Positions 38,701-44,700 of a DNA stretch of 64,000 nt are shown here, piece by piece. The stretch covers positions 224,001 to 288,000 of the forward strand of contig JBCBZJ010000001.1 in the NCBI GenBank assembly GCA_039815375.1, written 5' to 3'. The DNA comes from Verrucomicrobiota bacterium (GTDB lineage Bacteria > Verrucomicrobiota > Verrucomicrobiia > Opitutales > Coraliomargaritaceae). Every line of letters begins with the position of its first letter. Position 1 is the first letter of the stretch. The position numbers are program-made.

Positions 38701-41700
38701 ATGCGATGCGACCGAAGCGAAGTTGGCCAGTTCACTATGACCTTCCGAGGTGAGCTCTCTGGTATCGATTGTTTGGCATAGGCCGCTTACGACCGGTTTC
38801 GCGACTCCCGGGCTGAGGTAGGCGCGACCCGTCAATCGCACTGTTCGGTTGCCCTTCTCCGGATGCAAAACAAGATCGATTTCCTTGTTCTCGTCCTGAA
38901 CCTTTTGAAAGGCATCCATCGCTGCCTCCTGTGAGCCCTCTCGCAGCAGCATGAGAAAGTCATCAAGAGTTTTAGGAATTTTATCCATCTCTATCCCAAA
39001 GAGAGCCAGCATCGAACTGTCCCATTTCATCGGTTCGTCTGCAGTCCAGCTCCAGTAGCCAACTTCGGCTGTGTCGACTGCGTTTTGCAGGCTGAGCAAC
39101 TGGTCCTGGCATTGTCGGAGTCGCTGGAGTAGAGGATCATCCATCAGTTTTGCAAAAAATGATTCGCTATCATGAATAGATCGGCTTTTAATGAAGCACA
39201 ACTTCTTATCCGGCAGCATTTGCTACATGCCCGTTGCTATCAGTCACAGTGTCGTTCAATTCTTTAGCCTTCCGTTAAACGAGTCGCAGGTGGAGATTTG
39301 GGCTTCGGAGCAGAAATCCAGATTGGCTGGGCCTCCGACATTTGGACTCCTTTTTTGCTCTCCGGATTCTGTTGATGAAGCGAAGGAGGTGATGGAAATC
39401 GTGCGAATCTATGGGCACGTTCCGGTTATCATCGGATGCTCTGCCAGCGGCTTGATTGCCGAGTCACGCGAGATTGAGAATGAGGGTGGCTTTTGCATCG
39501 CTCTTTATCATTTCCCGGAGACGTGTGCCCATGTGCTGCATCTGCCCGAGTCACGCTTTGTAGAGTGCGATGAAGGTGGCCTCGGTGAAGCAACCAGGAC
39601 CCTGGCCGATCGGGTCAATGCATGGATGCTCTTTGCATCTTCTGAGAGTCTTGTGAATGACGGTTGGCTCTCGCATTGGGATATTGCTACGGGTGGTAAG
39701 CCTACAGTAGGCGGTTTTGCAGGAGGATCGGCAGAGGCATCGAGCGCGCTCTTCATGAATGGCCGGGTGGAGACGGAAGGCGCAGTTGCCCTTGCCCTGG
39801 AAGGTGAAGTCACGATTGATCCGGTGCTCTCTCAGGGTTGCCGTCCGGTGGGCTCGCCCTGGACGATTACTCAGGCAGAGCACAATGTCATCCATCAGGT
39901 CGGAAATCGACCGATTCTCGAAGTCTTGCGGGATACGCTCGAGGGAATGAGCCAACATGAGCAGCAACAGGCCCGCGGCAATATCTTCATCGGGCTGGTG
40001 ATGGATGAGTATAAGTCGAGTTTTGGCACTGGTGATTTTCTTGTGCGAAATCTCGCTGCGATCGATCCGAATACCGGATCGGTTGCGATCGCGACCCCTA
40101 CTCGCACGGGACAAAACCTTCAGTTTCAGATCCGAGATGCGAACGCCGCATCAATCGATTTCGAAGAGCTACTAAAGCAACGCCTCGAAGCACTTTCTGA
40201 TTCAGTGATCTATGGTGCCTGCCTTTGTGATTGTATTGGACGAGGTGCGTCCCTCTTCGGCATTCCGGATCATGACGCCAGTGTAGTGCAGGATCTTTTG
40301 CCAGGGCTGCCTCTTGGCGGTCTCTTCTGTAATGGAGAATTTGCACCGGTAAAAGGGCGCACCTTGTTGCACGGTTACGCAGCTAGTCTAGGGCTTTTTG
40401 TCGCTAAGGCGTAAACCTGTGCTCCATCCGGGAAGGGTGGTTAGTCACCCTGCTCAGGGCTATTAGTTATTTTGATTAGTATGCCTTAACTTAAAATATT
40501 ATTTGATTAGTTTATCTTCTTTTAAGAAGCTTTAAGCATATTTTGGTTAGTATAGAGGGTAGTAGTAAGGCTCGAACGTTTGGTAGGCGTTCGGGCCTTT
40601 TACTTTGGAAAATCAACCTATTCATTCTTGCTTGGCTTCGTTGGGGCTTCTTTTGTAATCGAAATTTTAGCCTACGCGGCCTCAGTGCACGTCGTATCTC
40701 TCCATTCATCAATGCCTAGCAAAGCGGATTCAGCTCCCACGATTCTTGACTCAAGTGCTCGTCTGGCATTGTTGCGAGTGCTTTGGCGCAGTCGTCTGGG
40801 CGATCTACGAGAACAAAACCTGATTCGTCAGGGCAAAGGCTGGTTTCATATTTCCGGAATGGGGCATGAGGCACTGGCAGCGGTTGCGCTCAGCCTTGAG
40901 GCCGACGACTACGCTTTTCCCTACTATCGGGATCGTGGTTTCTGCGTGCAGCGCGGCATTTCCGATTACGATTTGGCGCTGGCTTTTTATGCGAAGCGTG
41001 ATTCAGCAAGCGGTGGTCGTCAGCTGACAGGCCACTTTAGTGATCGGTCGCTGAATGTATGGAGTCACCCGTCTCCGGTTGGGGCTCACCTCTTGCCGGC
41101 CTGCGGTGCAGCTTGGGGCATGCAGCTCGACGGCAAATCCAATGTTGTCTATGCCTCGCTCGGTGAAGCTTCTGCACGACAGGGTGATTTTTTCGAGTCA
41201 GTTTGTTTCGCAAAGGAGCGAAATTTGCCGATCGTTTTCGTCGTCGAGGACAATCGTATCGCGATCAGCACACGCACGGATCAGACCAATCCACTTGTTC
41301 TCGGCGTGCTGGATGCGGGGGATTGGCAGCGTGTTGATGGTAGTGATGTGGAGGCGGTTGCCGTTGCCAGCCGTGAAGCGATTGCCAAGGCCCGGAGTGG
41401 GGCAGGCCCTTCGTTTATCTGGTGTGATGTGGAGCGGTTTTCGAATCATTCCAGTGCGGACGACCAGCGCATGTATCGTGATGCTGAGGAACTTGAAACC
41501 ATGCATGACCGCGACCCGATTGCCGTTTTCCAAAAGCGAATGATCGAGGACGGCCTGCTGACGATGGACGACGCAGCTGCACTAGAAGAGGAGATTCGTG
41601 AGGAAATACGCGCAGTTTATCAAGAGGCTTCCCAGGCCGAGGATCCGCGTGCTGCTGAAATTGAAGTTCATCTGACGGGCCCGCAGCAGAAACTGGCCGA

Positions 41701-44700
41701 GCCTCTTCAGATCGAGCTCGGTGAATCCTGCCGTATGCTCGATGCGGTCAACAAGACTTTCCACCACGCGATGGATGAGATGTCTGACGTGGTATTCTTT
41801 GGCGAAGACATTGCCGACCCAAAAGGGGGCGTTTTCAACCTCACAAAGGGGTTGTCGACAAAAGACCCATTCCGCGCAGTGAACGCTCCTTTGGCAGAGT
41901 CAACGATCATGGGTGTATCAGTTGGACTTGCCTCCTACGGGAAGCGGCCCTGTTTTGAAATTCAGTTTGTCGATTTCATCTACCCTGGCTGGAACCAGCT
42001 CGTCTCGAATATGGCGACGCTACGCTGGCGCAGTTTTGGTAATTGGAAGTGTCCACTTGTGATTTATGCCCCGTGTGGTGGCTATTTACCAGGTGGTGCT
42101 CTCTGGCACAGCCAATCCGGCGAGGCCTCGTTTGCACGCATTCCCGGTATCCGAGTAGTGATGCCTTCCACCCCGACTGATGCGGCAGGACTATTCTGGA
42201 CCGCTATGCATGGCGAAGATCCGACGATCATTCTCTTACCAAAGCATCTCATGTGGGCTGAACTGCCGGCCTCCGATACGGTTGATCCGGTGCACTTTGG
42301 TAAGGCTCGCATGGTTCAGGAAGGCGAGTTGCTGACATTGGTCACATGGGGCAACTGTGTAGAGCTGGTAGAGGAGACACTAGCCACCATGCTTGAGGCC
42401 CTCGATGTGGATCTTATCGACCTACGTTCGATAGCACCTTGGGATAAAGAGGCGATCGCCGATTCCCTTAAAAAGACCGGACGTCTGCTTATCGTTCAAG
42501 AGGATAACATTTCGGCCAGTATAGGCCAAATGATTGTGGCAGAGATGTGTTCCAGACACGCGGTTCTCTCGGCACTCAAGAGTCCGCCTGTGATTGTTTC
42601 CAAGGCTGATGTTCACGTCGGGTTCAATCCGGTCTATGAATACGCCGCGCTGCCCGACAAGGAGCGAATTACTGCTGCGTTGGATCATTTGCTTGCAACG
42701 GCATTGGAATCTAACCTGCAACCCGAACAGGTGCTCCCTGCAATATCCGCTCAACCCGAACATCCCATTCCCATGAATCAGCCCAACTCTATTCCTGACG
42801 GAGCCACCAAGACAATAGCTGTGCCGATTCTCGGGGAGGGTATTCGTGTGGCACGTATCGTTTCCATCCTCAAGAAAGCGGGTGATGTCGTAAAGGCCGA
42901 CGATGCGCTTTGCGAAGTCGAGACCGACAAAGCTGTTTTCCCGATTGAATGTGATGCGAGTGGTGTGCTTGGTGAGTGGCAGGTCAGCGAGGACGATGAA
43001 GTCACCGTCGGGCAAGGTCTGGTCGACCTTACGCTATCCGGAGCTGCGGTTGCACAGGTTGCTGCGACACCCGTTGCATCGCAGGATTATGAAACACTCA
43101 AGCGCACCGGTGGGCTTTCCCAGGAAGCTGTGAAGCAACTTCAGGGTATTGTGCCGGCCACAATCGACGTGACCTGTCGTTGGGAGACGGTTCGCGATGC
43201 ACGTCTGCGTAGTAAAGAAACGCCTGGCGGCACTTTATCGACTGCAACTATGACGGCATGGGCAGTTCTTGAGGCGATGCGGAAGCATGAACGTTTCGCC
43301 TCCGTTGTGCGTGGAGACGAGCTTGTTTACGATCCGGATCGCTTCGATCTTGGTGTTGCAGTGGCACTCCCCGGCGACCAGCTGGAAACCGCAGTAGTCA
43401 AAAACATAAGTAACCTGGACTGGGAGTCTTTTATCCCCGAGTTCAGCGATGCCCTTCGCCGGACCCGTCACGGTGAAATAGAGTCCAAGAACCGTGTTCC
43501 TTTATCTATTTCCAGTATGGGTGCCTATAATGTGCGATCAGCGATACCCATTGTTGTGCCGCCTGCCATCGCGACACTTTTCATCGGAGCACCCTATCAA
43601 CTTCCCGATCCGAAATCGAAAGACGGTGCGACGATGGAAGTCGCTTCACTGGTTCTCACTTTTGATCACCGATGGATTAATGGCGTCGGTGCAGCAGCCT
43701 TCCTCTCCGATGTTCGGAAGGGAATTGAGCGCTTTGACCTGGTCTAGGTCCCGAATCGATCGATATTCGTTGTCTTGGCAAAGGTGCGAATGAATGTGGC
43801 CACGATTTTAGAGAGCCCTGCAAATTGCTCCTCACTGAAATTCTGATTTTCAACCATGTCAGTGAAGCCTGGTAGATTATCGTGAAAGTCTTTTGGTTGA
43901 GCACGCTTGAATCCCATTTTGTAGTTGGGAAAATCTCGCCGTTCTATAGCCCTGCTTGACAGTAAGGTGACGCCTCGGTGCCGCGAGTCCGCTTCGATCT
44001 TGTTGTATAGTTCGACTACAGTTTCCTTGGGTCCTTCTATCACTTGAATGATATTGCCATCTGAGTGAAGTAATAGCCCTGTTATGTTCTTTACTGCATT
44101 TCTATATTGTGTGCGGGCAAGAAGCTCGAGCAGTGCTTCTTCCGTCAGCACCGCGTTTGCTGTGCTGACATACATGATTTGATGCAATCCAATCTCCATG
44201 CGACATTCTGTTCCAGTCTTTTGCGCAAAATCGCTACTATCAATCCAAGATGAGCCAAAAGATGTAAATTTTTCGAAAAACTAGTCTGCATTTCCGAGTG
44301 GGCGTTGTATTATTTTTTGATTTTCCAATGAGAAAGACTTGTCGGCATTGTTATACCCGATTCTCCGCGTCCAAAGGACATGGAGAATTCTGCTGCGCAG
44401 GCTGTGAGCACGTCTATTCCCTTATTCAAAAAGGTGGTTTGGGCGACTATTACAAAATGCAGGACCGAGTAGGGCGGCCGATTTTTGATAGTCCATTTCA
44501 GGCAGAGAATATTGTATTGGTAAAACAACTACAAGATCAGGTTGAGTCAGAGGGTGGGTATTCTAAAGTTTCATTTGGTGTGCAAGGGCTTTCCTGTATG
44601 GGTTGTGTTTGGTTGATTGAGCAGTTAGCAAAGCACCATCGTGGTGTGCGCTCAGTCAAGGTAGCGTTGAGTTCGCACCGAATCAGCTTGGCTTGGAATG

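What a model noticed while it worked through the whole genome (the two positions that open the first line are those of the whole stretch)
40712..43747. Single-polypeptide E1alpha-E1beta-lipoyl-E2 2-oxoacid dehydrogenase
g00669 (1011 aa) joins in one chain E1 alpha, E1 beta, a lipoyl domain and the E2 acyltransferase core of a branched-chain-type 2-oxoacid dehydrogenase, with no E3-binding domain between lipoyl domain and core, beside a normal split pyruvate dehydrogenase (g00684-687). I read it as a self-contained enzyme in which the E2 core displays covalently tethered E1. Such an all-in-one E1-E2 with its own lipoyl arm would be a new architecture for a textbook complex and a handy minimal model of it.
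Evidence so far: pfam.tsv: E1_dh 30-312, Transket_pyr 342-513, Transketolase_C 530-653, Biotin_lipoyl 701-772, 2-oxoacid_dh 816-1009; 39-41% to BCKDH E1 beta. Lipoyl-lysine motif TDKA at 738 and catalytic DHR near the C-terminus. Of 13 other Opitutales sampled, 9 have an open frame of 1021-1092 aa matching residues ~10-1010 and 2 a frame of 1104-1140 aa matching to ~790; 22 of 60 sampled Verrucomicrobiota match at E<=1e-60.
(Added by a program. Inside this text positions count along the whole contig: contig position 224,001 is position 1 of the stretch shown here. "Call 12" and the like, gene names such as g00115 and contig names such as C1 are that model's own, and its searches are not shown. 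The text may have been shortened before it was handed on; [...] marks where a part breaks off. The agent that wrote the report below was given it as the finding of a first reader that could run no searches.)

Follow-up and report, generated by a model that had tools for sequence, protein, structure and literature searches.

The report
Single-chain branched-chain oxoacid dehydrogenase
This marine bacterium builds the first two enzymes of a textbook multi-enzyme machine, plus its swinging arm, as one protein without the usual docking module, and probably uses it to make the starter units for its branched membrane fatty acids.

Summary
Confirmed. Window 40712-43747 encodes one intact 1011-aa protein: E1alpha, E1beta, lipoyl domain and E2 core, with all catalytic residues and no docking (PSBD) domain. 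It is conserved: 44 of 50 family genomes carry the core, 42 of them in frames of at least 1010 aa. The E1 part is branched-chain type. Its closest split relatives are a fused E1alphabeta gene 5-7 nt before an E2 that still has a PSBD-like segment; other such E2 genes sit beside HMG-CoA lyase. No acyl-CoA dehydrogenase was found in this genome or in 36 of 44 carriers, while cultured carriers are rich in iso-C14:0 and anteiso-C15:0. Best reading: it supplies isobutyryl- and 2-methylbutyryl-CoA primers for branched fatty acids (about 0.6; untested). It is not self-contained: E3 must act in trans. The core is predicted to trimerise and lacks the cube-forming C-terminal helix, so an OdhA-like hexamer is more likely than a large core. 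OdhA (E2-E1, no lipoyl) and QncL (E1beta-lipoyl-E2) are precedents; no paper on this layout turned up in 8 searches. The scan noted the same layout before in other genomes. New variant of a known kind.

The parts
40712..43747 (+). Gene for the 1011-aa E1alpha-E1beta-lipoyl-E2 fusion (P0001)
   Evidence: AlphaFold2 mean pLDDT 91, pTM 0.75
40799..41647 (+). E1alpha domain (aa 30-312): ThDP/Mg motif G151-E-A...D180-N181, FPYYRD, GRQLTGH108, HSSADD loop (H246)
   Evidence: Pfam E1_dh E 5e-53; best solved match Thermus BCKDH E1alpha 1um9_A, E 7e-43; motifs in 119-120 of 120 homologues
41735..42718 (+). E1beta domains (aa 342-669): E396 (PLAEST) and H466 (GGALWHSQ)
   Evidence: Foldseek top hit 1um9_B, TMt 0.96, rmsd 1.4 A
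42719..42799 (+). Flexible linker 1 (aa 670-696)
   Evidence: pLDDT < 50; 11% mean identity in alignment A1
42812..43027 (+). Lipoyl domain (aa 701-772), lipoyl-Lys K740 at 42929-42931; tethered at both ends
   Evidence: Pfam E 1.6e-15; ETDKA in 120 of 120 homologues
43043..43111 (+). Short flexible linker 2 (aa 778-800), where free sister E2 proteins carry a PSBD-like segment
   Evidence: pLDDT < 50; lipoyl-motif-to-DHR distance 247 aa versus 313-363 in 20 free sister E2s
43112..43744 (+). Divergent E2 acyltransferase core (aa 801-1011): S934, H986 in DHRWING; ends IERFDLV without the C-terminal trimer-trimer helix
   Evidence: Pfam E 5.5e-25; VIA Z 21.7-24.6 to 15 solved E2 cores at 15-24% identity; trimer score 0.91 vs best control 0.00
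40567..40609 (+). Strong hairpin followed by a U-rich tail, 113 nt upstream of the ATG; probably the terminator of the upstream FIST-domain gene, which would make the fusion gene a separate unit (inferred)
   Evidence: -25 kcal/mol, z -4.5; no Rfam family at threshold

Best explanation
A single-chain branched-chain 2-oxoacid dehydrogenase E1-lipoyl-E2. The E1alphabeta half decarboxylates a branched 2-oxoacid on ThDP and acylates lipoyl-K740. The arm swings to the E2 core, which passes the acyl group to CoA (H986, S934, between neighbouring subunits). A free E3 encoded elsewhere reoxidises the arm without a docking domain. E1 needs a two-fold and E2 a three-fold axis, and the cube-forming helix is missing, so the smallest closed assembly is a hexamer (two E2 trimers, three E1 dimers), as in OdhA. 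In this family the products are most likely isobutyryl-CoA and 2-methylbutyryl-CoA, used by the stand-alone FabH to start iso-C14:0 and anteiso-C15:0. Shown: sequence, domains, residues, conservation, PSBD absence, genomic context. Predicted: folds, E2 trimer. Inferred: substrate, CoA as acceptor, hexamer, E3 partner, physiological role.
For: Catalytic residues conserved in 119-120 of 120 close homologues (the S934 motif in 109) and across 26 sequences down to 46% identity (H466 in 25 of 26). Best solved match for both E1 halves is Thermus branched-chain E1, sharing FPYYRD, GRQxxxH and HSSADD; Geobacillus PDH E1alpha lacks the GRQxxxH segment. Free sister E2 genes: 24 of 80 loci have an HMG-CoA-lyase-like gene downstream (2 of 2 tested pass the NCBIfam cut-off). 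The genome has a separate PDH and OGDH; no acyl-CoA dehydrogenase, POR_N, FadB or HMG-CoA-lyase-sized HMGL gene was found at 99.89% completeness. 36 of 44 family carriers have no PF00441 match. Named carriers (P0005, P0080, L069, L074) are species with major iso-C14:0 and anteiso-C15:0. A related E1-lipoyl cassette is fused to FabH in 13 of 13 loci checked. E2 trimer: score 0.91, best control 0.00, runs agree in at least 95% of contacts, pLDDT at least 87; the mark was reached by 20 of 30 solved pairs and 1 of 23 single chains; E2 trimers are solved, so this may be likeness.
Against: No enzyme assay, knockout or expression data. No NCBIfam model reaches its cut-off. Neighbours in the 55 close GTDB loci are variable and non-metabolic. 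In more distant carriers the neighbours point to catabolism (FadB/FadJ-like gene directly upstream in 5 of 19 loci), so the anabolic role may hold for this family only. I did not check the cultured species' genomes for other primer routes. 105 of 151 order genomes lack this core. Kin genomes are not independent. The FabH fusions form a separate E1 clade. The hexamer was not modelled.
Confidence: 0.62

Rival explanations
1. Same enzyme, but catabolic here: it feeds Leu/Ile/Val breakdown.
For: Free sister E2 beside HMG-CoA lyase in 24 of 80 loci and beside a biotin-carrier-like gene in 35 of 80. FadB/FadJ-like gene upstream in 5 of 19 distant loci; enoyl-CoA hydratase and carboxyltransferase genes nearby in 2 of 19. 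The genome has a methylmalonyl-CoA mutase cluster.
Against: No acyl-CoA dehydrogenase found in this genome (control rings in 9 of 14) or in 36 of 44 family carriers; no FadB or HMG-CoA lyase found. Likely right for some Opitutaceae-like carriers, not for this one.
Confidence: 0.08
2. A broad or different-substrate dehydrogenase: a second pyruvate or 2-oxobutyrate dehydrogenase giving acetyl- or propionyl-CoA.
For: Branched-chain E1 enzymes often accept 2-oxobutyrate and pyruvate (recalled). 1ik6, labelled pyruvate dehydrogenase, ties with 1um9 for E1beta. Odd-chain fatty acids occur in Coraliomargarita.
Against: A complete split PDH exists. BCKDH-type motifs. It would leave the branched primers without a source among the ThDP enzymes found.
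Confidence: 0.15
3. The divergent E2 core loads an acyl carrier protein rather than CoA (QncL-like), priming fatty-acid synthesis directly.
For: A core of the same broad clade is fused to an ACP in P0248; another E1-lipoyl-E2 precedes ACP-KS-C-A in P0327 (not placed in the tree, no DHR motif found). The core is only 15-24% identical to solved E2s and its first helix is shortened. QncL has E1beta-lipoyl-acyltransferase and works with an ACP (PMC6335953, passages).
Against: Free sister E2s sit in CoA-dependent leucine-catabolism context. No ACP is conserved beside the gene. A stand-alone FabH next to a plsX-like gene exists. CoA-binding residues were not mapped.
Confidence: 0.1
4. The E2 core is a scaffold only, or the protein is an E3-independent decarboxylase.
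For: No PSBD and no E3 gene beside it; Asn990 replaces the common Asp after the catalytic His.
Against: FDHRxxNG and ETDKA in 120 of 120 homologues. Azotobacter E2p also uses Asn at this position (title of 1dpc names Ser558, His610, Asn614). H986 lies in the predicted subunit interface.
Confidence: 0.05

Closest known systems
Branched-chain 2-oxoacid dehydrogenase complex (Thermus thermophilus E1b 1um9; Pseudomonas 1qs0; human 1dtw)
   Same: E1alpha/E1beta folds and motifs, lipoyl domain, E2 core fold and catalytic His/Ser; most likely the same chemistry.
   Different: One chain instead of three; no PSBD; lipoyl domain tethered at both ends; no C-terminal trimer-trimer helix; fixed 1:1:1 E1:lipoyl:E2 ratio.
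Actinobacterial OdhA/KGD (PMC10415282, passages; PMC8740704, first of two parts read)
   Same: E1 and E2 catalytic domains in one chain; a two-fold and a three-fold module joined, solved there as a homohexamer; E3 supplied in trans.
   Different: OdhA is E2o-E1o (reverse order, homodimer-type E1, 2-oxoglutarate) and has no lipoyl domain; this protein has an alphabeta-type E1 first and its own lipoyl arm.
QncL/QncN/QncM of quinocarcin synthesis (as described in PMC6335953, passages)
   Same: QncL joins E1beta domains, a lipoyl domain and an acyltransferase in the same order.
   Different: E1alpha (QncN) is separate; the donor is a ketose phosphate and the acceptor an ACP; secondary metabolism.
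Two-gene operon: fused E1alphabeta (about 660 aa) plus lipoyl-PSBD-E2 (about 390-420 aa), found here in metagenome loci; E2 homologues named Pirellulaceae and Fimbriimonadaceae
   Same: Nearest split relatives in the E1 tree (starred set 97/93; sister branch 88/86); same divergent E2 clade and C-terminus; stop-to-start gap 5-7 nt in 15 of 17 loci.
   Different: Split, and keeps a PSBD-like segment (E3_binding E 0.06-0.15 in 3 of 12, below cut-off). Itself uncharacterised as far as searched.
Trimeric actinobacterial E2p (bioRxiv 2020.07.24.212647, passages)
   Same: No higher-order core because the C-terminal helix does not make trimer-trimer contacts.
   Different: There a three-residue insertion turns the helix inward and the PSBD is kept; here the chain ends five residues after the last helix.

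Membership tests
2-oxoacid dehydrogenase E1 (alphabeta type) | ThDP/Mg motif, cofactor-activating Glu, two active-site His, alpha and beta folds | tested here: met
   G151-E-A...D180-N181, E396, H246, H466; Pfam; Foldseek
Branched-chain 2-oxoacid dehydrogenase | BCKDH-type E1 motifs and closest solved relatives | tested here: met
   1um9 is the top hit for both halves; FPYYRD, GRQxxx[15 protein letters not shown]
Branched-chain 2-oxoacid dehydrogenase | Preference for branched 2-oxoacids | not testable with these tools
   Only indirect: gene context and fatty-acid profiles
Branched-chain 2-oxoacid dehydrogenase | Curated family score | tested here: inconclusive
   None of 19 NCBIfam models hit reaches its cut-off; none of them is a BCKDH-specific model
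Canonical E2 component | Lipoyl domain with DKA and catalytic core with Ser/Thr and DHRxx(D/N)G | tested here: met
   K740, S934, H986, N990; Z 21.7-24.6 to solved cores
Canonical E2 component | Peripheral subunit-binding domain | tested here: not met
   No E3_binding hit at E<=5; 23-residue disordered linker; about 75 aa shorter than free sisters
Canonical E2 component | C-terminal 3-10 helix that builds 24/60-mer cores | tested here: not met
   Ends IERFDLV, coil after helix 991-1006 in both models; the genome's own PdhC and SucB keep the ETPALMLV / EDPSRLLFGI tail. Oligomer state itself not measured
Canonical E2 component | Homotrimer with strand exchange | tested here: met
   Predicted only: 0.91 vs best control 0.00; may reflect likeness to solved trimers
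OdhA/KGD two-in-one enzymes | N-terminal E2o, homodimer-type E1o, no lipoyl domain | tested here: not met
   Opposite order, alphabeta E1, lipoyl present; NF008907 39.5 bits vs cut-off 878
OdhA/KGD two-in-one enzymes | Homohexamer | not testable with these tools
QncL-type carrier-protein loaders | Separate E1alpha, partner ACP and NRPS cluster | tested here: not met
   E1alpha is fused; no conserved ACP or NRPS neighbour in 71 loci clustered

The most novel reading that the evidence does not exclude
The E1alphabeta-lipoyl unit of this subfamily is a portable acyl generator that has been joined several times to different acceptors (E2 core, FabH, thioesterase, E2-ACP, PKS/NRPS). In this protein it forms a coreless, covalently closed hexamer with a doubly tethered arm and no E3 docking site, and its divergent E2 hands branched acyl groups straight to ACP, giving a CoA-free start to branched fatty-acid synthesis.
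Probability: 0.1. Interest if true: 0.85.

Novelty: new variant of a known kind. Interest (0 to 1): 0.55.

Why it matters
It is a natural minimal version of a megadalton textbook machine: one 110-kDa chain with fixed E1:lipoyl:E2 ratio, no docking domain and probably no large core. That makes long-standing questions directly testable: whether the big core and PSBD docking are needed for channelling, whether acyl transfer runs in cis or in trans, and how an undocked E3 finds the arm. With the split operon as an apparent precursor and a PSBD-retaining fusion (P0248) as an intermediate, it also shows how such complexes get fused. Practically, it is a one-gene candidate source of branched acyl-CoA for engineering, and it would explain the branched lipids of common marine Verrucomicrobiota. 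The chemistry itself is probably ordinary.

Tried and rejected
Assembly or read-through artefact: rejected. A hidden divergent PSBD: rejected. A distinct C-terminal domain in the 1104-1140 aa Opitutales frames: rejected, same E2 core. Single origin of all five-domain fusions: rejected on the E1 tree (15 rows against 21, p-AU 5e-5, at least 3 changes; the group was defined by architecture but after a first tree had been seen). Gene neighbourhood in the own family gave no functional partner. A search for longer forms (1771-5000 aa) found none at E<=1e-30 among 7997 candidates, which is weak evidence. No RNA holder listed; contigs of three other runs cover the gene only in pieces. No sigma-70-like promoter on the + strand and no Rfam family upstream. 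FabH-type and E2-type fusions did not co-occur (6 vs 46 of 151 order genomes), but all 6 lie in one family, so this is not independent evidence. Paper searches with no description of this layout; subscription-only papers and bioRxiv supplements are not covered, and I read no supplements. E3 docking and the E1 dimer were not modelled. LipB/LplA were not searched; LipA was seen by motif only.
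Full report
Observation. The reading frame is real. It runs from ATG 40712 to TAG 43747 and gives 1011 aa without a stop. Pfam places E1_dh at 30-312, Transket_pyr 342-513, Transketolase_C 530-653, Biotin_lipoyl 701-772 and 2-oxoacid_dh 816-1009. No E3-binding domain appears even at E<=5. AlphaFold2 folds every domain with confidence (mean pLDDT 91) and leaves only 1-6, 670-696 and 778-800 disordered, so there is no room for a folded docking domain.

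Conservation. The best 120 homologues listed, out of 5734 hits, all have the same five domains; named ones include Coraliomargarita sinensis, C. algicola and Lentimonas. In the window's family, 44 of 50 genomes carry the E2 core, 42 of them in frames of at least 1010 aa. In the order, 46 of 151 carry it, all in frames of 1009-1140 aa. In 301 phylum genomes, 33 matched to about residue 1010 and 5 more proved to be long-linker forms; only two candidate regions per genome were scored there.

Catalytic anatomy. The ThDP motif (G151-E-A to D180-N181), H246, E396, H466, K740 and FDHRxxNG (H986) are kept in 119-120 of 120 close homologues, the S934 motif in 109; they persist in 26 sequences down to 46% identity. 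Their roles follow from known E1 and E2 enzymes (recalled, and named in PDB titles). Both E1 halves match Thermus branched-chain E1 best. The protein shares FPYYRD, GRQxxxH and HSSADD with it, while Geobacillus PDH E1alpha lacks the GRQxxxH segment. The E2 core has the E2 fold (Z 21.7-24.6 to 15 solved cores) but only 15-24% identity to any. Three copies are predicted to trimerise with H986 in the interface: score 0.91, best control 0.00, at least 95% contact agreement, pLDDT at least 87; this mark was reached by 20 of 30 solved pairs and 1 of 23 single chains, and may reflect likeness to solved trimers. The chain ends IERFDLV, five residues after the last helix. The genome's own PdhC and SucB keep the tail that forms the trimer-trimer helix, which builds cubes and icosahedra.

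Origin. The nearest free E2 proteins (37-42% identity over the core; names Fimbriimonadaceae, Pirellulaceae) are about 400 aa and keep a PSBD-like segment; 3 of 12 score E 0.06-0.15 against E3_binding, below cut-off. Their lipoyl-to-DHR distance is 313-363 aa against 243-286 in most fused forms. Of 80 metagenome loci holding such an E2, 17 have a fused E1alphabeta orthologue upstream, 15 of them 5-7 nt away. These split E1 proteins lie next to the Opitutia fusion clade in the tree (clade 100/99; sister branch 88/86; starred set of 15 rows 97/93). I infer fusion of that operon with loss of the PSBD; fission is not excluded by the tree alone, but the split form carries the ancestral PSBD. Five-domain fusions are not one clade (p-AU 5e-5). 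P0248 is fused yet keeps a PSBD-like segment.

Function. The substrate is inferred. 24 of the 80 free-E2 loci have an HMG-CoA-lyase-like gene downstream (2 of 2 tested pass the cut-off). Of 19 distant loci fetched, 5 have a FadB/FadJ-like gene directly upstream and 2 have enoyl-CoA hydratase and carboxyltransferase genes nearby. All of this points to branched 2-oxoacids. This genome has a split PDH and an OGDH, two lpd-like genes and two FabH-like genes. No acyl-CoA dehydrogenase, POR_N, FadB or HMG-CoA-lyase-sized protein was found at 99.89% completeness. 36 of 44 family carriers also lack a PF00441 match. Cultured carriers make branched fatty acids: C. sinensis 16.7% iso-C14:0 and 11.1% anteiso-C15:0 (PMC10288369, passages and Table 2), C. 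algicola (PMC11165907, passages) and two Thalassobacterium species (PMC11980603, passages; loci L069, L074). These need isobutyryl and 2-methylbutyryl primers from a BCKDH, passed to FabH (PMC9328018, passages). I did not check those genomes for other routes. Against: close neighbours are variable and uninformative, 105 of 151 order genomes lack the core, and there is no experiment.

Mechanism. Decarboxylation on ThDP at an alpha/beta-prime site, acylation of lipoyl-K740, transfer to CoA at the E2 trimer interface, reoxidation by an E3 in trans. The protein is therefore not self-contained. Joining a two-fold E1 to a three-fold E2 without a cube-forming helix suggests a hexamer, as solved for OdhA (PMC10415282, passages). 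This is inference; long linkers could also allow larger or open assemblies.

Wider family. A related E1alphabeta-lipoyl unit is fused to FabH in 13 of 13 distant loci checked and in 40 of the best 150 representatives, against 14 that join both E1 halves to an E2 core, one of them a contig fragment of 697 aa. Single cases end in a thioesterase, E2-ACP, FabH-KR-ACP or a PKS/NRPS (28 of 150 scanned). This keeps open an ACP-loading reading.

Comparison and novelty. OdhA fuses E2o to E1o without a lipoyl domain. QncL fuses E1beta, lipoyl and acyltransferase with E1alpha separate (PMC6335953, passages). The complete alphabeta-lipoyl-core chain was not found in eight searches of open-access text; databases hold it under generic names. 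The scan noted the same layout before in other genomes (seven notes) and the FabH form as well; these notes are not independent support, and my reading was set before I saw them. Verdict: real, works like a BCKDH E1 plus E2, fails two defining features of canonical E2, and is a new variant of a known kind. Interest 0.55.

Noticed in passing
L037-L049 (e.g. L044:3649-7107, L042:3785-7168); P0265, P0271, P0289: E1alpha-E1beta-lipoyl-FabH fusions of about 1100-1170 aa with no E2 core: 13 of 13 loci checked, 40 of 150 representatives; 6 of 151 order genomes, all in one family. Candidate CoA-free priming of fatty acids; the scan has noted it before.
   Followed up: partly
P0248 (1227 aa), P0327 (2895 aa), P0308 (1942 aa), P0281 (1091 aa): The E1-lipoyl unit fused to E2-ACP (with a PSBD-like segment kept), to E2-ACP-KS-MT-C-A, to FabH-KR-ACP and to a thioesterase: possible 2-oxoacid-fed loading modules of PKS/NRPS lines.
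   Followed up: partly
P0251, P0252, P0262, P0246: Other five-domain fusions that fall elsewhere in the E1 tree; P0262 sits inside the FabH-fusion clade with an E2 core in place of FabH.
   Followed up: partly
L165, L168, L171 and 14 more; L126, L148, L174 and 21 more: A divergent free E2 clade with a PSBD below the Pfam cut-off and no trimer-trimer tail; in one group it follows a fused E1alphabeta gene, in another it precedes glutamine-amidotransferase-like, biotin-carrier-like and HMG-CoA lyase genes with no E1 nearby.
   Followed up: partly
L050:4236-7388 (-); P0368: A second kind of E1alphabeta with a C-terminal lipoyl domain and no E2 core, in a genome that also has the five-domain fusion; the N-terminal 275 aa of the L050 frame has no Pfam hit and may be an over-long start call.
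   Followed up: no
window 40567-40609: 15-pair hairpin with U-rich tail (z -4.5) between the FIST gene and the fusion gene; likely an intrinsic terminator.
   Followed up: partly
window 35681-40414 and 43744-44199: Sensor kinases, a FIST-domain gene and a BLUF gene flank the fusion in 34, 20 and 13 of 71 loci; looks like family synteny, no link to the enzyme seen.
   Followed up: partly
window 50010-57340: Two large (about 1240 aa) acidic, probably secreted proteins on the minus strand with repeated DxDxD-type motifs; not examined.
   Followed up: no
PMC10288369 Table 2: Coraliomargarita profiles list iso-even and anteiso-odd acids but no iso-C15:0 row, hinting at selectivity for Val/Ile-derived over Leu-derived primers at E1, E2 or FabH.
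   Followed up: no
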